Shown here piece by piece: positions 46,903 through 53,748 of a stretch of DNA of 64,000 bases (within the stretch, counting starts at the first letter, position 1; every line of letters starts with the position of its first letter). This stretch comes from Escherichia phage vB_EcoM_JN03. The stretch is taken from the sequence record OR885871. One strand, 5' to 3'. Under the pieces are notes generated by a model. It saw only the letters and a program-made list of their open reading frames with translations, made no database searches and was not told the DNA's origin. The position numbers and the translations under genes were made by a program.

Positions 46903-47097
46903 ATGTCCGTAAAAATGAAAATTGATATGACCAAACCATTTTTGCGTTCAGGAGTTGACTCTCTTGACTCACAGTTTAAACCCAGCGAAGTTTTAATCCA
47001 ACAGATTGAGACTAATCGCGAATTCATAGAACACATGCTGGTGAAGCCGGAAGGTGAAGCCGTCCATACCACTAAAGAAGGTAATAACGATGATTGA
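46903..47097 (+). CDS. Small protein (64 aa) translationally coupled to the vWA protein
   Basis: Stop codon overlaps the downstream start (ATGATTGA arrangement). Confidence 0.45.
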   Translation: MSVKMKIDMTKPFLRSGVDSLDSQFKPSEVLIQQIETNREFIEHMLVKPEGEAVHTTKEGNNDD

Positions 47098-49306
47098 ATC
47101 ATTAACATTTAAGAATGCGGTTGCGACCGTCGCGCCGTCTAACCATGTAATCGTTGTGGATATCTCCGGTTCCATGTATCGTTCACTTCCAGAAGTCCGT
47201 AAGCATCTGAAGGAGAACCTGCCTTCCCTGGTGAAACCGGAAGATACTGTGAGCATCCTTTACTTTTCATCTCGCGGTGATTTCGGAACGGTATTTGCCG
47301 GACGTCAGATTAACAGTGCAACTGACCTCAGTGAGATCAATAATCTAATTGACCGTTTCCTGAAGCCTTCTGGTTGTACTGGTTTTGTTGAGCCGCTGAA
47401 ACTGGCTGCGGAAACTGCCATTAGCCTGAATAAACCTGGTTATGTTAACAACCTGGCATTCATGACCGACGGGTATGACAACTGCTGGCGTTCTAATGAA
47501 ATCCTGGATGCCGCTGAAGTACTGCCCAAAGCGTTTGATAACATTACCTTCATCGAATACGGTTGGTATTGTAATCGCGAACTGCTGGGGCTAATGGCAG
47601 AACGTTCTGGTGCGACCCACGTATTCGCCGAAGGACAGAATGAATATCAGACCGAATTGGAAAACGTGCTGAAAACTTCTTCACCGAAAGTTGTAGTCGA
47701 TGTTCCTCTGGTTTATACCCATGCCATTTATGTTGAAAATGGCGTGGCGACTGTTTTAGCTGTGCATCCTGATGAAGAGCACCCTATTGGCCACGTCAGC
47801 ATCCCTGAAAGCGTTTCTCAGCTGTGGGTTGTAAACCCCAACATGATCGACCAGCTGGATAATCTGGCAGACATCCAAGCGGCATACGTGCTGGCATTTT
47901 ACGGCGTGTATACCATGGACGCAGATTTGGTTTGGGCTGCGCTGAAGAAAACGGGAGATGTTCGTTTCATCAAACAATACAGCAACTGTTTCACCAAGCA
48001 GGACTATTCCAACATCAAAGTCGATCTGACCCAGGCTATCGTGGATGAAACTCTGCGCGGCGTAGATGGCATCGATTACAATATGGTTCCGGCTGAAGAC
48101 GCCACCACCATTGTTGATGTTCTGACGTATTTGGCTGAAGCAGATGTCTCTATCGTCACCAAGCATCCGCTATTCTCTTACAAGAGCATTGGGCGCGGTA
48201 CTATACAAAAAGTTGACGACACCGAAGACAAGTTGGCCGAAGAGATTGCGAATGCGACTTCTAAAGAAGAGCGTAAAGCCCTGGCGCTCAAACTGGCCGA
48301 GCACGAAGATTGGACGCCGGAATTCAATCCAGCAGATGATAAAGGGATTGTCCCGATCAGCAATTTGGTCTATAATTCAGAACGTCCTAACATCAGTGTG
48401 CAGACAGTTCAACACGGAACGGTTATTGTGCCTGAGTTTGTACAGAAGAAATATGAACTTCCTGAAGAGCTGGGAACCTGGCGTTATCGCAATTACACCA
48501 TTGTCAAGGATGGTATCATCAACCTGAAAACAATGCCTATCACTGCAGATTCTCCGATTGTTCGGGCTAAGGTGGCACAGGATTTGACTGCCATGGGTGT
48601 TCATGTGTTTGGTGGGCCGGAAGTCTTCATTGTAAATCTGGAAAGTGTCCCAATGGTTAACCGCGCCATGACAAAGAATATCAGTGCTGCTGAATTCTTT
48701 GCAGACAATGTGCGCCGTGAAGCATTGAAGGCAAAGCAAAAAGTTCTGAAATTCTACCGTGATGAACTGGTTGGCAAAGGCAACGCTACTGGTCTGGCTT
48801 CAAAATATGGCAAAGAAGCGGCTGATTTCCTGTCAGCAAACGGCATTCGCGACTATGGATTTTCACCGAAGACTTCTTCTGTAGAATCAACCGATGTCTA
48901 TATGAGTCGTGAATTGAATGTGAAAATCAAAGGCGCATCTTCACTGCCGAGCATCGCGTCTGTTATCAAAAAACAGACGGACGGTAAAAAACTGAATGTC
49001 GCTGATCAGCTGATCGCTAATGCCCTGGCCGAATACAATGCGTTTGTTAAATCGCCGATGATCACCAGCGTACCGGAAGAGACTCAGAAAAAGCTGATCG
49101 AAAGTTGGATTGGTGATGCAGCAAAAGCAGCTATCAACGAAGTTCGATCTCTGAACAAAACGCTGTCCAAGGTAGTTTATGGGATTGTTGCAGGCCATGG
49201 TTGGTTTACCGACCTGGATTTGGAAGAATCCACTATGGATGTGGAAGTTGATGGGGTGAAATACACTGTCACTGCCGAACTGGCTGAAAAAGAAGTCAAA
49301 ATCTAA
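47090..49306 (+). CDS. von Willebrand factor A (vWA) domain protein (~738 aa)
   Basis: MIDAS motif VVVDISGSM, conserved Thr region (SGCTGF) and FMTDGYDN, followed by ~550 aa of uncharacterised sequence. Start at the ATG with RBS aagaagg. Confidence 0.75.
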   Translation: MIESLTFKNAVATVAPSNHVIVVDISGSMYRSLPEVRKHLKENLPSLVKPEDTVSILYFSSRGDFGTVFAGRQINSATDLSEINNLIDRFLKPSGCTGFVEPLKLAAETAISLNKPGYVNNLAFMTDGYDNCWRSNEILDAAEVLPKAFDNITFIEYGWYCNRELLGLMAERSGATHVFAEGQNEYQTELENVLKTSSPKVVVDVPLVYTHAIYVENGVATVLAVHPDEEHPIGHVSIPESVSQLWVVNPNMIDQLDNLADIQAAYVLAFYGVYTMDADLVWAALKKTGDVRFIKQYSNCFTKQDYSNIKVDLTQAIVDETLRGVDGIDYNMVPAEDATTIVDVLTYLAEADVSIVTKHPLFSYKSIGRGTIQKVDDTEDKLAEEIANATSKEERKALALKLAEHEDWTPEFNPADDKGIVPISNLVYNSERPNISVQTVQHGTVIVPEFVQKKYELPEELGTWRYRNYTIVKDGIINLKTMPITADSPIVRAKVAQDLTAMGVHVFGGPEVFIVNLESVPMVNRAMTKNISAAEFFADNVRREALKAKQKVLKFYRDELVGKGNATGLASKYGKEAADFLSANGIRDYGFSPKTSSVESTDVYMSRELNVKIKGASSLPSIASVIKKQTDGKKLNVADQLIANALAEYNAFVKSPMITSVPEETQKKLIESWIGDAAKAAINEVRSLNKTLSKVVYGIVAGHGWFTDLDLEESTMDVEVDGVKYTVTAELAEKEVKI

Positions 49307-49338: not shown

Positions 49339-49349
49339 GAGATATGCTT

Positions 49350-49661
49350 ATGTCAAACAAACCAACTTATGTTGAAGTAATGCGTGTTCTGGCTCAGTAC
49401 GCTTGTGACAACCTGAACATGGAAACTTGGCGCAACGGGGATCACAAGGACAAGTTTGATAACATTGATGATAATATCGATGCTTTAGCGCCGTTACGGG
49501 TTAAGAATGATCTCGGCGGTGACGATCTTGACATGATTGAGCTGGTCATGGAAATCGAAGAAGAGTACGATGTAGAAATTAGTGACGAGTGGGTGGGTAA
49601 ACATGGAGATGATCCTACCCTCGGAGAGTTAGCTGAACTCGTCGTTGCCCTGCGCAAGTAA
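49350..49661 (+). CDS. Acyl carrier protein-like protein with Ser-to-Asp substitution at the phosphopantetheine site
   Basis: VKNDLGGDDLDMIELVMEIEEEYDVEISDE aligns with E. coli ACP [29 protein letters not shown]; the DSL serine is Asp (DDL). Confidence 0.7.
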   Translation: MSNKPTYVEVMRVLAQYACDNLNMETWRNGDHKDKFDNIDDNIDALAPLRVKNDLGGDDLDMIELVMEIEEEYDVEISDEWVGKHGDDPTLGELAELVVALRK

Positions 49662-49667
49662 CTGAAG

Positions 49668-49734
49668 ATCCCCAACGTTTGTTGGGGATTTTTACTTTTA
49701 GGGGTTTACTTCTATAAGGCAAATGCGTATTATT
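49668..49734 (+). promoter_or_regulatory. Terminator hairpin + sigma70-like early promoter cassette, copy 1
   Basis: Hairpin ccccaacgtttgttgggg, then GTTTAC - 18 nt - TATTAT; 53 bp identical to copy 2. Confidence 0.6.
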
Positions 49735-49782
49735 GAATTCATCGGGCGGGGCGTTCCCGTTCATTGAAAGAAGGTATATATT

Positions 49783-50013: not shown

Positions 50014-50079
50014 CTTTTATTAAATCCCAACAAACGTTGGGGATTTTTACTTTTAGGGGTTTACTTCTATAAGGCAAAT
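50013..50079 (+). promoter_or_regulatory. Terminator hairpin + sigma70-like early promoter cassette, copy 2
   Basis: Hairpin cccaacaaacgttgggg (loop is the reverse complement of copy 1's loop), then an identical promoter. Confidence 0.6.
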
Positions 50080-50139
50080 GCGTATTATTCAATAACTGGC
50101 GAACGATGGGTTCACCAGGTTGAAAGGTAAGATTATATC

Positions 50140-50379
50140 ATGAAGAACAAAATGGTAGAAACTTCAGTGGAGATTGATCGTAATTGGGGCTTGCTCCGCG
50201 CTAAAGGGTTCCGTCGTGTGTATGCGACCAAAGAAGTATATGCCCAGCGCCGCGATGTTATCATCAGCAAGAAGGGAAAAGATTGGGTTGCCGAAGAAGT
50301 CGATGTCGAAACAGGCGTCGTCGGAAAGGTGAAAGCCAAGGCCGCGATCCTCTTCGCTCTTCTGAAGCACATCAGTTAA
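50140..50379 (+). CDS. Hypothetical basic protein (79 aa)
   Basis: Downstream of cassette 2; RBS aaaggtaag. Confidence 0.45.
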   Translation: MKNKMVETSVEIDRNWGLLRAKGFRRVYATKEVYAQRRDVIISKKGKDWVAEEVDVETGVVGKVKAKAAILFALLKHIS

Positions 50380-50438
50380 TTCTATAACTTAGGGTGGGGT
50401 ATGATTACCCCGCCTATTTGAAATGCAGGAACTATACC

Positions 50439-50945
50439 ATGACCGATCAACAAATTCAAGATTTATTTTACCTCGTCCATGATAAGTCCCATATTATGCG
50501 CCCTGGCACTGTTTCTCCTGTCGTCCGTGATCTGGTGCAAGAATTACGCGAACCGCAGATGACCACACTTTATCGTGGGTTGCCTAAAGAGGACGTTGTG
50601 CGTTTAGAGATGATGTTTGAACGAGGCGACATGTTCCAGACATGGGATTCTTGTCTTAGCTTCAGTGAATTGAAGCATGTGGCCAAAAAATTTTCTAAAT
50701 CGTATGGAACCAGAGCTGTTGCTCGCATTTGTTACAAACATCGAAACGGACTCCCAGAGGGGCTTAATGTCTTTGGTTCTCTAGAAAAATTTGTGAACAA
50801 AGACGATGAATCAGAAATGGATATGCTGGACTTGGCGTCCATGGAGAAAGAATGGATATTCTGCCAGCCTCGCGTCTTCCCAGTTTCAAGAAAAATGGCA
50901 ACAGATGGGACGATGGTTTTTACCGTATCACTTATTACTCTATAA
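50439..50945 (+). CDS. Hypothetical protein (168 aa)
   Basis: Start context tatttgaaatgcaggaactataccATG, repeated before the next gene; begins MTDQ. Confidence 0.5.
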   Translation: MTDQQIQDLFYLVHDKSHIMRPGTVSPVVRDLVQELREPQMTTLYRGLPKEDVVRLEMMFERGDMFQTWDSCLSFSELKHVAKKFSKSYGTRAVARICYKHRNGLPEGLNVFGSLEKFVNKDDESEMDMLDLASMEKEWIFCQPRVFPVSRKMATDGTMVFTVSLITL

Positions 50946-50998
50946 ACCCACGGCGGGGTATCTTTGCCCCGCCTATTTGAAATGCAGGAACTAATATC

Positions 50999-51277
50999 AT
51001 GACAGATCAAAGAAGTATTGCTCGTTCGGAAATCAAAGATATTATACAGAGCAAAACCAACGAAACTCATGCTCAATCCAGAATGCTATCTCGATTTGTT
51101 GAAATTAAGTTTGACATTGAAGAGAATAACAATCGGAGAGCGCTGGAGGGAATGTTGGCGATTATCTTGGGCCATGTCACCAATTCAGCATACGACATGG
51201 ATGATTTAACTCGTTTGTTGAACGCCCAGAATAACGTTGGGACTTCTGTTCGCGAATTGCTGTTTAAGTCCGAATGA
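50999..51277 (+). CDS. Hypothetical protein (92 aa)
   Basis: Same hairpin + tatttgaaatgcaggaacta leader as the previous gene; also begins MTDQ. Confidence 0.5.
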   Translation: MTDQRSIARSEIKDIIQSKTNETHAQSRMLSRFVEIKFDIEENNNRRALEGMLAIILGHVTNSAYDMDDLTRLLNAQNNVGTSVRELLFKSE

Positions 51278-51314
51278 ACTAACTAAGGGATAACCCTATA
51301 TCCCGAGGTGTGTC

Positions 51315-51764
51315 ATGTTCCTTACATCCTTTATTGACTGGATGAATATCATAAATGGTCTGAGGATCCCTGTTGGGAACCTCGGGCTTTCTCGTTCTTC
51401 TATGCCGCAAATCGATGCCGACAAACAAGAAGATTTTCACAAATATCTTGAAGACAACGGCGTGTCCATAGATGCTGCGCAAGTACCCATCAAAATGCTT
51501 CGTCTTACCCAGAACGAAATCAATAAAATGAAGGTCTGGAAGATTATGAAGCAGATCAGAAATAAGAAGCCCATGGGTCGAGTTTGGGTGTCTTCTGACA
51601 ATTACGTTGTTGACGGGTCTCACCGATTTGTCGCTGCGTTGAACATGGACGGCAAACAGCGCATGAAGGTCTACAAAGTTGATTTGCCAGCGATGGAATT
51701 TGTTAAACTCGCTAAACAGTTTCAGGGTGTGCGATACAGAACGGTCAGCGATACCCGTTTCTGA
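51315..51764 (+). CDS. ParB/Srx-like nuclease-domain protein
   Basis: Motif VVDGSHRFVAALN resembles the ParB N-terminal domain core (DGxHR...A). RBS gaggtg. Confidence 0.5.
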   Translation: MFLTSFIDWMNIINGLRIPVGNLGLSRSSMPQIDADKQEDFHKYLEDNGVSIDAAQVPIKMLRLTQNEINKMKVWKIMKQIRNKKPMGRVWVSSDNYVVDGSHRFVAALNMDGKQRMKVYKVDLPAMEFVKLAKQFQGVRYRTVSDTRF

Positions 51765-51843
51765 ATACGATAGTTTATTGAAACCCTTTACTCAACATGG
51801 TGACATCCCTATCATTTTATCCAATGAAATAAGGAGAATCACC

Positions 51844-52533
51844 ATGAAACGTTTAATCATCGGGGTTGTGCTGGCTGGTCTGGCACTTCCTGCCACCGCC
51901 AAGCTGAACTCCACAGGTGAAAAACTGTGGTCTGATCTTTCCTACTGTGCTGGGTTCTCCCAAGCTGTTGCTATAGACAAAACTGGTTCCATAGAGAACT
52001 TTGCTGAACTCTGGGCCACAGGTAACGTCACAGATGCCGTTGTAAACGCTGGTATTGAGTTTAATCGATATAAGCAAGGCGCGTTCAACCTGAAAGGATA
52101 TATGAACGACGAAGCATTTAACCGAGGAGGCATGGAGGCGAGCGATCTTATTATGACTGGTCGTATGGACACACAAGGACGAATGACCGTAAGACAGTGC
52201 CGTTCTCTCCCTTCTCCAGCATTACAAAAAGGTGTGCAGGTTGGCCGACGTCAGCTGGACCTCATCAATGATGGAAACCAATGTATCCGAGTATTTGAAT
52301 ATAGCGCTGATCAAGAATCTGATCGAAGACTGAAAAAGGAATGGCGGACTCGCGCCCTTGGCCTGAGAGCATGGCTGGTGGAAAATGATCATTATTATGA
52401 AGACCGTGTTCAGAATGGTTTGAAAGATCTTTCCACTAATTTGTCTGTCAATCTTGATGATCCCAGGCTTGCCCGTGAACTCAAGCAAACAAGAATTGAC
52501 TGTGATAATATGATGAAGGAGAACGAAAGATGA
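51844..52533 (+). CDS. Secreted (periplasmic) protein with signal peptide (230 aa)
   Basis: RBS aaggag. N-terminus MKRLIIGVVLAGLALPATA is a signal peptide with an A-x-A cleavage site. The ORF-track start at 51679 is upstream and unsupported. Confidence 0.55.
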   Translation: MKRLIIGVVLAGLALPATAKLNSTGEKLWSDLSYCAGFSQAVAIDKTGSIENFAELWATGNVTDAVVNAGIEFNRYKQGAFNLKGYMNDEAFNRGGMEASDLIMTGRMDTQGRMTVRQCRSLPSPALQKGVQVGRRQLDLINDGNQCIRVFEYSADQESDRRLKKEWRTRALGLRAWLVENDHYYEDRVQNGLKDLSTNLSVNLDDPRLARELKQTRIDCDNMMKENER

Positions 52534-52850
52534 AAATCAAAATCTTATTGTTATTCCTGTACACTTTCATGTCTTCCCAAGTATTGGCAGCTCCGGCCAG
52601 TAAGTTGAATATTTGTGCTGCTTGGTTGTCTACATATCAACAATTCCATCCGGATGATAAGGATACATCAATCCTTTTATCTGATTATGAAGGTGAATTG
52701 AAACGCCTTGATCTCTATAGTGTGGACCAGATAGAGAATGCGCTTGATTTACCCATGATGGAATCTGCTGCAGACAACAGCAAACAGACTATTAAAGATT
52801 TGACCATGTGCCGTGAAATTGCAACTAATTTCGTTGGAAATCAAAGATAG
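52530..52850 (+). CDS. Secreted protein with signal peptide (106 aa)
   Basis: MKIKILLLFLYTFMSSQVLAAPA signal peptide; start overlaps the upstream stop (ATGA). Confidence 0.5.
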   Translation: MKIKILLLFLYTFMSSQVLAAPASKLNICAAWLSTYQQFHPDDKDTSILLSDYEGELKRLDLYSVDQIENALDLPMMESAADNSKQTIKDLTMCREIATNFVGNQR

Positions 52851-52899
52851 TTTCAGGTTAAAATTTTATTCCCCATTGAACTGAAAGGTGTATTTCGTG

Positions 52900-53691
52900 A
52901 TGATCATTACCAAAAAGATCGCTGAGGCGATCGTTGAAAAGAATAAAATGTTCGCACCTAGCAAAGCAAAGGTTATTCTGATCCATGATGATGGTCGCGT
53001 GGTCTTCGCTGAAAAATTTGAGCAAGGGTGCGCTTTCTGGTTTGCAGACACTATGCGTGAAAGCAAGCTACAGGGCATCATTTACAAATTAACTCTGGTT
53101 GCCAAGCGCAACGATCAGGGTGACTGGGTTACGGTTTGTGATTTCAGCTCCAAGGTTGATACTCGACCAAAATCTCGCCAAGAGAGAATTCTGGAAGCTC
53201 AGGAAAAACTTGTTGCTGCTCGTACTTCACCAGTCATTAAGCCAGCAGTCATCTCCCCTTCTATTGATCTGCCGCCTGTCAGCCAAAAGGCTGTTGAGCA
53301 ATATGCAGAAAAACGAAAAGAAGAACCCGTGAAGTCTCCAGTTGAGAATAAAGAAGAATCTGAATTTATTTCAATCAGGCAGTTATGTCCGCAAGAAAGA
53401 CGATTTTCTTCACCAAATGATTTATTCGTGTCTTTCCGGTCTAATGGGAAGATTATATTGTGCAAAACCCTACGGGAACAATTGCAGTGGACTAACATCA
53501 ATATGATGGTGAGTCGGAACTTCAAACGATTCGCAATCGGTGAAGGTAAAGATTATCCTGTTAATAAGAGCGGAACATATGCAAATCGTCATATGTGCGA
53601 CAAATTGTCTTTCCCAAACGATTCCGGAACCATCCGCGTTCGTTTAGAATGGGATGAAAGTTTGAACATGTATGTCGGTGATATAAAATAA
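52900..53691 (+). CDS. Hypothetical protein (263 aa)
   Basis: No motif recognised; start ambiguous (52888 or 52900). Confidence 0.45.
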   Translation: MIITKKIAEAIVEKNKMFAPSKAKVILIHDDGRVVFAEKFEQGCAFWFADTMRESKLQGIIYKLTLVAKRNDQGDWVTVCDFSSKVDTRPKSRQERILEAQEKLVAARTSPVIKPAVISPSIDLPPVSQKAVEQYAEKRKEEPVKSPVENKEESEFISIRQLCPQERRFSSPNDLFVSFRSNGKIILCKTLREQLQWTNINMMVSRNFKRFAIGEGKDYPVNKSGTYANRHMCDKLSFPNDSGTIRVRLEWDESLNMYVGDIK

Positions 53692-53748
53692 TTCAATAAC
53701 ATTAGGGCGGTTATTATTAAACCGCCTTTTATTTGAGAGATCTATATT

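What the first reader, a model, noticed from the sequence alone, without database searches (positions are those of the whole stretch)
51315..51764. ParB/Srx-like domain protein in the early accessory region
The motif VVDGSHRFVAALN resembles the nucleotide-binding / nuclease core of the ParB N-terminal domain. Stand-alone ParB-like domains in phages have been linked to nuclease activity and to DNA-modification or anti-defence contexts. Here it precedes secreted and membrane proteins of unknown function.
Basis: inference. Interest (0 to 1): 0.5.

Follow-up and report, generated by a model that had tools for sequence, protein, structure and literature searches.

The report
Virion-carried solo ParB/Srx-fold phage protein
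This gene of a Vi1-like Salmonella phage encodes a small, highly conserved protein with the nucleotide-binding ParB/sulfiredoxin fold that is found inside purified virus particles; that is a known kind of phage protein whose actual job nobody has yet tested.

Summary
The ORF (51315-51764, +, 149 aa) and the motif VVDGSHRFVAALN (aa 98-110) are present as described. The gene is real. It occurs in 417 phage records, evolves under strong purifying selection (dN/dS about 0.05), and its product has been detected by mass spectrometry.

It is not a partition ParB, a sulfiredoxin or a P1 DdrB-type ParB domain. It belongs to a large family that no Pfam model detects, with at least 4,874 clusters at 50% identity. 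The family consensus is R..MPQ / L.TQ.E...KV / S.D.Y.LDGHHR.A.

- The gene is a conserved core gene of Ackermannviridae, not an accessory one.
- An identical protein (Sajous1 gp192) and an 83% identical one (LIMEstone1) were found in purified virions.
- In other phages the same domain sits inside giant "polyvalent" proteins of the kind known to be delivered by virions.

Best guess: a virion-carried, NTP-binding enzyme that acts at or soon after genome entry. The substrate is unknown. This is a new member of a known kind and of moderate interest.

The parts
51315..51764 (+). CDS of the 149-aa ParB/Srx-fold protein. It is 100% identical to Salmonella phage Sajous1 gp192.
   Evidence: conservation; dN/dS
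51462..51719 (+). ParB/Srx core, about aa 50-135: strand 52-58, helix 71-82, strands 90-92 and 97-100, helix 102-111, strand 116-122, helix 126-134.
51606..51644 (+). It contains D100-G101-S102-H103-R104, the presumed phosphate-binding and catalytic loop. The family consensus is DGHHR; this lineage has Ser at 102.
   Evidence: aligned to DGHHRW of 1VK1 and SerK and to ESGNGR of DdrB-ParB
51504..51536 (+). Motif L64-T65-Q66-N67-E68 ... K73-V74 (LRLTQNEINKMKV). Q66 is invariant and K73 nearly so. By position it corresponds to ParB box I or the Srx Lys-containing helix (inference).
51393..51410 (+). Family-specific N-terminal motif R27-S-S-M30-P31-Q32, invariant or nearly so, in an extension that precedes the ParB/Srx core.
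   Evidence: the extension is modelled with lower confidence, pLDDT 65-72
51318..51359 (+). N-terminal hydrophobic helix, aa 2-15 (FLTSFIDWMNIING). It is conserved only among close relatives and could be a lineage-specific targeting or packaging element (speculative).
   Evidence: the broad family alignment starts at about aa 14-23
51279..51308 (+). Conserved 5' leader CTAACTAAGGGATAACCCTATATCCC followed by GAGG. It includes a hairpin, GGGATA (51287-51292) paired with TATCCC (51299-51304), directly before the Shine-Dalgarno sequence. It is conserved in Kuttervirus and Limestonevirus even though the upstream gene differs.

Best explanation
The gene encodes a stand-alone ParB/sulfiredoxin-fold protein. 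It consists of a roughly 50-residue N-terminal extension and an 85-residue core, with no DNA-binding HTH and no dimerisation domain. The protein is incorporated into the virion of Ackermannviridae phages.

It is the solo form of a domain that other phages place inside giant, virion-delivered polyvalent proteins. The most likely mechanism is as follows. The conserved pocket (Q66, E68, K73, D95, D100-G-S/H-H-R104) binds a nucleoside triphosphate and hydrolyses it or transfers its phosphate. The basic protein (pI 9.9) travels with the packaged DNA and acts at or just after genome entry. It would work either on DNA, as an NTP-regulated nicking or DNA-binding activity, or on nucleotides.

Shown: the fold, the conserved pocket residues, presence in virions, and the fusion partners.
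Inferred: NTP binding, ejection into the cell, timing, and substrate.
For: Fold:
- AF2 model pLDDT 80.9, pTM 0.75.
- Foldseek against the PDB agrees.

Pocket residues: invariant or nearly invariant in 74-172 diverse members.

Virion association:
- Sajous1 gp192 is 100% identical. It gave a count of 11 in Table 6 ('# Retrieved') from CsCl-purified virions (PMC10892097).
- The LIMEstone1 orthologue (83% identical, 17.3 kDa) is marked 'confirmed structural protein', with 35.6% coverage and 5 unique peptides (PMC3296691).
- That paper also states that all 12 unknown structural proteins of LIMEstone1 have structural counterparts in ViI.

Polyvalent-protein context:
- The domain lies inside Pseudomonas phage USP_25 gp31 (4,899 aa) with ART-PolyVal, LPD23 and a helicase.
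- It also lies inside Ralstonia phage Eline gp53 (4,514 aa) with SLT, an Eco57I-type methylase, LPD3 and LPD38.
- Metagenomic fusions include Mu-type portal, Zeta-toxin and AAA_33 kinases, GNAT, ART, RelA/SpoT, cytidylyltransferase-like, poly(A) polymerase head and Acb1 domains.
- A BFVD relative is annotated 'Phage-like element PBSX protein, XkdF'.
- Iyer et al. 2017 (PMC5512222) argue that ParB-superfamily domains of polyvalent proteins are virion-delivered, NTP-regulated enzymes.
Against: - No biochemical data exist for any member of the family.
- The gene lies among replication and recombination genes, not in the structural module. It also lacks the ACTAAATA late-promoter-like motif that precedes the structural genes of this window.
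- Both virion proteomes also contain some proteins that are clearly not structural: RegB, SSB, ligase and gp44. Co-purification therefore cannot be excluded.
- The first 40 residues contain no T4-type capsid-targeting sequence with an L/I-x-E cleavage site (sequence inspection).
- In this lineage Ser replaces the first His of the DGHHR consensus, which could change or remove catalysis.
- Ejection into the host has never been shown.
Confidence: 0.5

Rival explanations
1. It is an intracellular DNA-metabolism accessory factor: a ParB-fold NTP switch or nickase that works with the phage replication and recombination machinery. It ends up in virions only because a basic DNA-binding protein is co-packaged or co-purified with DNA.
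For: Macro-synteny is conserved. In the window and in a distant metagenomic relative (41% identity) the gene lies between clamp-loader genes and a helicase, RNase H and SbcCD. There is no late-promoter motif in the 37-64 kb part of the window. The pI is 9.9. Both virion proteomes also list replication proteins.
Against: Coverage of 35.6% with 5 peptides in LIMEstone1, and a count of 11 in Sajous1, are comparable to genuine baseplate proteins and well above the <5% coverage of the contaminant-like proteins. Fusions to portal, SLT and LPD domains in polyvalent proteins point to delivery by the virion.
Confidence: 0.25
2. It is a small-molecule or protein phosphotransferase of the SerK, SbnI or sulfiredoxin type. 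It would use ATP to phosphorylate a metabolite or a protein and would not act on DNA.
Against: The protein lacks the C-terminal substrate domain of SerK and SbnI, which are about 240-250 aa. It has Ser, not the catalytic Cys of Srx, at the equivalent position. No metabolic partner genes are adjacent.
Confidence: 0.12
3. It is an accessory or activator of DNA base modification, analogous to the ParB-like activators of phage thymine dioxygenases. It would help the 5-hmdU-derived hypermodification of Ackermannviridae DNA.
For: Homologues occur in several phages known to carry hypermodified thymidine, including ViI-like phages and PhiW-14 gp75. A precedent exists for ParB-like activators of DNA-modifying enzymes (PMC13229309).
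Against: 5-NeOmdU synthesis of ViI was reconstituted with P-loop kinases, aGPT-Pplases and a PLP enzyme, and the paper never mentions a ParB-like protein (PMC8989533). The family is far more widespread than hypermodification, with at least 4,874 clusters that include T4-like Aeromonas phages and many others. The dioxygenase-associated ParBs have a C-terminal dimerisation domain, which this protein lacks.
Confidence: 0.05
4. It is a canonical partition or centromere-binding ParB.
For: Only the shared fold.
Against: 149 aa with no HTH or dimerisation domain. No PF02195 hit. No ParA is annotated within about 9 kb on either side. The phage is a virulent myovirus.
Confidence: 0.01

Closest known systems
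DdrB-like ParB domains of phage polyvalent proteins (Pfam PF18763; Iyer, Burroughs, Anand, de Souza & Aravind 2017, PMC5512222)
   Same: Both are ParB/Srx-superfamily domains found solo or embedded in giant phage polyvalent proteins. Both are associated with virions (a processed form of P1 DdrB is packaged in the head). Both have a conserved Arg after strand 3. Neither has a ParA partner or other DNase domains. Function is untested in both.
   Different: This is a different sequence family. The target gives no PF18763 hit, whereas P1 DdrB scores 2e-39. hhalign between the two family alignments gives a probability of 1.4%. The motifs differ: DG(H/S)HR and TQxE here, against ESGNGR and ELQPRDR in DdrB-ParB. 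This family also has an R..MPQ N-terminal extension.
ParBc_2 (PF08857), Atu1540, SerK and SbnI-type ParB/Srx proteins with a DGHHR motif
   Different: All Pfam scores are below the gathering threshold, and the target itself gives none. The target lacks the C-terminal domain of SerK and SbnI. This lineage has Ser in place of the first His.
Sulfiredoxin
   Different: There is no catalytic Cys (Ser102 occupies that position) and no peroxiredoxin context. The protein is viral and found in virions.
Canonical ParB, Noc and KorB CTPase clamps
   Different: No HTH, no C-terminal dimerisation domain, no GERRxRA or box III, no ParA or parS. A PF02195 search does not detect it. The PF02195-based survey of the fold (PMC12704722) would therefore not have captured this family.
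T4 internal proteins and Alt (injected head proteins)
   Same: Small proteins, not needed for building the particle, that are carried in the virion of a T4-related myovirus. In this window an Alt-like ADP-ribosyltransferase gene lies two genes upstream.
   Different: No T4-type N-terminal capsid-targeting sequence or L/I-x-E cleavage site is visible. The fold is unrelated. The gene is conserved across the whole phage family, whereas T4 internal-protein genes are hypervariable.

Membership tests
ParB/Srx superfamily (fold level) | alpha+beta core with a four-stranded sheet and two conserved helices, superposable on ParB-N and sulfiredoxin | tested here: met
ParB/Srx superfamily (fold level) | Conserved Gly-x-x-Arg-type loop at the strand 3 / helix 2 junction, with the active-site arginine | tested here: met
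   D100, G101 and H103 are invariant and R104 is in at least 90% of 74-172 members. The register matches DGHHRW of SerK/1VK1 and ESGNGR of DdrB-ParB.
ParB/Srx superfamily (fold level) | Significant sequence-profile match to a Pfam member of the ParB clan | tested here: inconclusive
   The target has no Pfam hit at E<=1. Among family members, 26 of 74 hit PF08857 (best 1e-4, below the gathering score), 4 hit PF18763 and 1 hits PF02195. phrog_1033 'ParB-like' scores E 0.0016.
ParB/Srx superfamily (fold level) | NTP binding, hydrolysis or phosphotransfer | not testable with these tools
   Requires biochemistry. Kaljevic et al. 2025 report that neither sequence analysis nor AlphaFold3 reliably predicts the nucleotide specificity of this fold (PMC12704722).
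Canonical partition ParB (CTPase DNA clamp) | Central HTH DNA-binding domain and C-terminal dimerisation domain | tested here: not met
   The protein has 149 aa. The model contains only an N-terminal extension and the ParB/Srx core.
Canonical partition ParB (CTPase DNA clamp) | Box II GERRxRA and box III motifs; match to PF02195 | tested here: not met
   The loop is DGSHR. There is no PF02195 hit at E<=1.
Canonical partition ParB (CTPase DNA clamp) | Adjacent parA gene | tested here: not met
   No ParA-like gene is annotated within about 9 kb on either side in the near-identical phage KE30, nor among the ORFs scanned here. The whole genome was not scanned.
DdrB-like ParB (PF18763) | Match to PF18763, with ELQPRDR and ESGNGR motifs | tested here: not met
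   P1 DdrB aa 36-167 scores 2.1e-39 and the target gives no hit. A broad-family HMM against DdrB scores -0.6 bits. hhalign of A2 against A4 gives probability 1.4%.
DdrB-like ParB (PF18763) | Occurs solo or inside phage polyvalent proteins and is associated with the virion | tested here: met
   Found in giant proteins with ART-PolyVal, LPD3, LPD23, LPD38 and SLT. Virion MS. This is a shared way of working, not membership.
ParBc_2 (PF08857) / SerK / SbnI-type | Score above the Pfam gathering threshold (23.6 bits) | tested here: not met
   The best family member scores 22.6 bits. The target gives no hit.
ParBc_2 (PF08857) / SerK / SbnI-type | DGHHR(W) loop | tested here: inconclusive
   The family consensus is DGHHRW, but this lineage has DGSHRF.
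ParBc_2 (PF08857) / SerK / SbnI-type | Additional C-terminal substrate-binding domain (proteins of about 240-250 aa) | tested here: not met
Sulfiredoxin | Catalytic cysteine in the GCHR loop | tested here: not met
   Ser102 (His in most family members) occupies that position. The correspondence of positions is inferred from the motif register.

The most novel reading that the evidence does not exclude
The protein represents a very large ParB/Srx family (at least 4,874 clusters at 50% identity) that no Pfam model detects. Its members would be capsid-delivered enzymes that sense, hydrolyse or phosphorylate nucleotides at the moment of genome entry. They could, for example, deplete or modify an NTP or an immune signalling nucleotide, or gate the first steps on the incoming DNA. 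That would make them a general anti-defence or take-over module, used solo in Ackermannviridae and as a cassette in polyvalent proteins elsewhere.
Probability: 0.15. Interest if true: 0.7.

Novelty: new member of a known kind. Interest (0 to 1): 0.38.

Why it matters
Ackermannviridae (Vi1-like phages) are widely used as therapeutic and biocontrol candidates, and this is one of their conserved proteins of unknown function that is physically present in the particle.

The ParB-CTPase/Srx fold is currently being recognised as a versatile NTP-binding module. This family escapes searches based on PF02195, so it is missing from recent surveys. It is nevertheless very common in phages and in their giant injected proteins.

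A biochemical activity for this 149-aa protein would annotate thousands of phage proteins and one recurrent module of polyvalent proteins. As it stands, the finding adds a well-supported fold assignment and a corrected context (virion protein, core gene). It does not reveal a new kind of system.

Tried and rejected
- Direct Pfam scan of the protein at E<=1: no hit. NCBIfam: none.
- PDB sequence searches with the single protein and with two profiles: nothing significant. The von Willebrand A1 'DGSH' matches (E about 0.3) are chance. With the broad profile only the DGHHRW loop of 1VK1 and SerK aligns, at E 0.6-1.4.
- Membership in the P1 DdrB-type ParB family: rejected.
- 5-hmdU DNA kinase or hypermodification enzyme: rejected as the main reading. 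The ViI kinases are P-loop enzymes and the pathway was reconstituted without this protein.
- T4-type late promoter TATAAATA upstream: absent. The phage's own late-like motif ACTAAATA is also absent from this region.
- T4-type capsid-targeting sequence or L/I-x-E site at the N-terminus: not seen.
- The conserved 5' leader does not recur elsewhere in the window.
- Literature search for a Kuttervirus transcriptome: the search terms were poorly chosen and returned nothing useful.
- Cluster-member names for 10 representatives: uninformative.
- The AFDB50 fold library was not available.
- The antisense ORF 51279-51623 (114 aa, - strand) is treated as spurious because it lies inside the conserved gene.

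Full report
**Where the window comes from**
The stretch 50300-53700 is 100% identical to Salmonella phage SPTD1 and 96-99% identical to many other Kuttervirus genomes (Ackermannviridae, Vi1-like myoviruses of about 157 kb).

**Observation**
The ORF at 51315-51764 (+) encodes 149 aa and is preceded by a GAGG ribosome-binding site. The motif VVDGSHRFVAALN is aa 98-110.

The gene is real and under selection:
- tblastn finds it in 417 phage records. These cover Salmonella, Klebsiella, Escherichia, Dickeya, Serratia, Erwinia and Vibrio Ackermannviridae. More distant copies occur in Delftia PhiW-14, Ralstonia RSP15, Acidovorax ACP17 and T4-like Aeromonas phages.
- All 16 nucleotide differences from Sajous1 are synonymous.
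- dN/dS against Dickeya phage JA15 is about 0.05.

**Fold**
Sequence searches do not identify the protein directly:
- Pfam at E<=1, NCBIfam and PDB phmmer/hmmsearch give nothing significant.
- PHROGs places it in phrog_2859 (unknown function, 3e-45). It also gives weak hits to a ParB-like phrog (0.0016) and to a profile 3,431 positions long.

Structure prediction settles the question:
- An AlphaFold2 model built from 17 orthologues has mean pLDDT 80.9 and pTM 0.75, with values of 82-93 over residues 31-140.
- Nearly all of the first 45 Foldseek PDB hits belong to the same superfamily.
- UniRef already labels the orthologues 'ParB/Sulfiredoxin domain-containing protein', as does BFVD for viral relatives.

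The core spans about aa 50-135. Residues 1-50 form a family-specific extension.

**The family**
A profile search of 1.84 billion cluster representatives found 4,874 clusters at E<=1e-3 and 2,272 at E<=1e-10.

Across 74 to 172 diverse members the consensus is R..MPQi / Lk.TQ.E.n..KV / p.ivS.D.y.lDGhHRw.A. Residues R27, P31, Q32, Q66, D100, G101 and H103 are invariant. M30, K73, D95, R104 and A107 are nearly so.

The DG(H/S)HR loop occupies the position of GERR in ParB, GCHR in sulfiredoxin and DGHHRW in SerK and 1VK1. Ackermannviridae carry Ser in place of the first His.

Among 74 members, 26 give sub-threshold hits to PF08857 ParBc_2, 4 to PF18763 and 1 to PF02195. The family therefore sits in the ParB clan, but no current Pfam model covers it. 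A PF02195-based survey of the fold, such as PMC12704722, would not have retrieved it.

**What it is not**
- It is not a partition ParB. It has no HTH or dimerisation domain, no GERR or box III motif, and no nearby ParA.
- It is not a sulfiredoxin, because it has no Cys in the loop.
- It is not a DdrB-type ParB, which is the ParB family described for polyvalent proteins. P1 DdrB aa 36-167 scores 2e-39 on PF18763 and the target gives no hit. A broad family HMM does not detect DdrB. hhalign between the two family alignments gives a probability of 1.4%, although the aligned register of the catalytic loop is correct.

The region 49.6-51.3 kb is indeed plastic:
- Two 68-nt hairpin-plus-sigma70-promoter cassettes lie at 49671-49738 and 50026-50093.
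- Two 49-nt hairpin/leader repeats (50386-50434, 50945-50993) precede an Alt-like ADP-ribosyltransferase gene and a small ORF. Both of these ORFs begin MTDQ.
- In Sajous1 and in the Dickeya phage JA15 these two genes are replaced by a denV-like gene and small ORFs.

The target gene and its 35-nt leader, which includes a hairpin directly before the Shine-Dalgarno sequence, are conserved regardless of what lies upstream. In a distant relative the gene lies between the clamp loader and a helicase, RNase H and SbcCD, which is the same macro-synteny. It is therefore a core gene sitting next to an accessory slot.

The late-promoter-like motif ACTAAATA occurs seven times. All copies are on the + strand, just upstream of genes, at 2.5-26 kb. 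None occurs at 37-64 kb. The gene is therefore probably not driven by a canonical late promoter.

**Virion association**
- Sajous1 gp192 is 100% identical to the window protein. [quoted passage not shown] That is comparable to baseplate proteins in the same table (PMC10892097).
- The LIMEstone1 orthologue is 83% identical and has a mass of 17.3 kDa. The matching table entry reports 35.6% coverage and 5 unique peptides (PMC3296691).
- That paper adds that all 12 unknown structural proteins of LIMEstone1 have structural counterparts in ViI.
- Caveat: both data sets also list a few replication or RNA-processing proteins.
- The vWA protein encoded at 47054-49306 is also in both proteomes.

**Polyvalent-protein link**
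The same domain lies inside two giant phage proteins:
- Pseudomonas phage USP_25 gp31 has 4,899 aa and also carries ART-PolyVal, LPD23 and a helicase.
- Ralstonia phage Eline gp53 has 4,514 aa and also carries SLT, an Eco57I-type methylase, LPD3 and LPD38.

Among the top 150 representatives, 83 are longer than 200 aa and 11 are longer than 1,000 aa. Their partner domains include Mu-type portal, GNAT, Zeta-toxin and AAA_33 kinases, cytidylyltransferase-like, poly(A)-polymerase head, RelA/SpoT, ADP-ribosyltransferases and Acb1. A BFVD relative is annotated 'Phage-like element PBSX protein, XkdF'.

These are the hallmarks of the virion-delivered polyvalent proteins described by Iyer et al. 2017. 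Those authors argued that the ParB-superfamily domains of such proteins are NTP-regulated enzymes acting early in infection (PMC5512222).

**Most likely mechanism**
The protein is probably a virion-carried NTP-binding enzyme of the ParB/Srx fold that acts at or soon after genome entry, on DNA or on nucleotides. The fold, the conserved pocket, presence in virions and the fusion pattern are shown. NTP binding, ejection and substrate are inferred. I give this 0.5.

The main rival (0.25) is an intracellular replication or recombination accessory that is merely co-packaged with DNA. It is supported by the synteny, the missing late-promoter motif and the basic pI. A SerK/Srx-type phosphotransferase (0.12) and a DNA-modification accessory (0.05) follow. 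The modification rival is weakened because ViI hypermodification was reconstituted without this protein (PMC8989533).

**Verdict**
The ParB/Srx assignment is supported by structure and motif but not by a significant profile hit. The description 'early accessory' is only partly right. This is a new member of a known kind: a solo ParB/Srx domain of a large family that lacks a Pfam model and has not been characterised. The fold was already flagged by automatic annotation and the virion presence by one proteomics paper. Interest is moderate, because a simple biochemical assay could annotate a very large phage protein family.

Noticed in passing
window 49671-49738 and 50026-50093: A 68-nt direct repeat (93% identical). 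Each copy consists of a GC hairpin, a T-run and a sigma70-like promoter (TTTACT-N17-TATTAT). They resemble the promoter-early stem-loop (PeSL) cassettes that flank shuffled ORFs in the hyperplastic regions of T4-type phages (resemblance from memory).
   Followed up: partly
window 50386-50434 and 50945-50993: A 49-nt repeat (86% identical) made of a hairpin (GGGGTAT...CCCC) and the leader CTATTTGAAATGCAGGAACTA. Each copy precedes an ORF that begins MTDQ: the ADP-ribosyltransferase-like gene and ORF 50999-51277. Sajous1 and JA15 have denV-like and small ORFs in place of these two genes, so this is a swappable cassette slot.
   Followed up: partly
window 50439-50945 (+): A 168-aa protein that matches phrog_832 'RNA polymerase ADP-ribosylase' (Alt-like) at 1e-16 but has no Pfam hit. 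The real start is probably ATG 50439, not the GTG at 50394 given in the ORF list. An ART gene and a ParB-fold gene lying close together mirror the domain content of polyvalent proteins.
   Followed up: partly
window 47054-49306 (+): A 750-aa protein with an N-terminal vWA-like domain. Its orthologues were also detected in virions (LIMEstone1 ORF108, 6 peptides; Sajous1 gp185, count of 1), even though the gene lies outside the structural module.
   Followed up: partly
window 2571, 4629, 9589, 16105, 20355, 25138, 26356 (+ strand): The motif ACTAAATA occurs 7 times against 1.9 expected. Every copy is on the + strand, just upstream of genes in the structural half of the window. It is probably this phage's late-promoter core, a variant of T4 TATAAATA. 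It is absent from 37-64 kb.
   Followed up: partly
window 51844-52533 and 52530-52850 (+): Two ORFs that overlap by ATGA, both with N-terminal signal-peptide-like segments. The second matches phrog_3843 'Rz-like spanin' (2e-58). No lipoprotein box is visible in either, so the spanin label looks uncertain.
   Followed up: no
window 49344-49661 (+): An acyl-carrier-protein-like gene (PF00550 at 3.7e-7; phrog_4154 at 1e-56) directly downstream of the vWA gene. It is conserved in Sajous1 and JA15. The role of an ACP in a virulent myovirus is unexplained.
   Followed up: no
window 51279-51308: A leader conserved between Kuttervirus and Limestonevirus, with the hairpin GGGATA-N6-TATCCC directly before the Shine-Dalgarno sequence of the target gene. 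It is unique in the window. It could be a translational or RNA-processing control element.
   Followed up: partly
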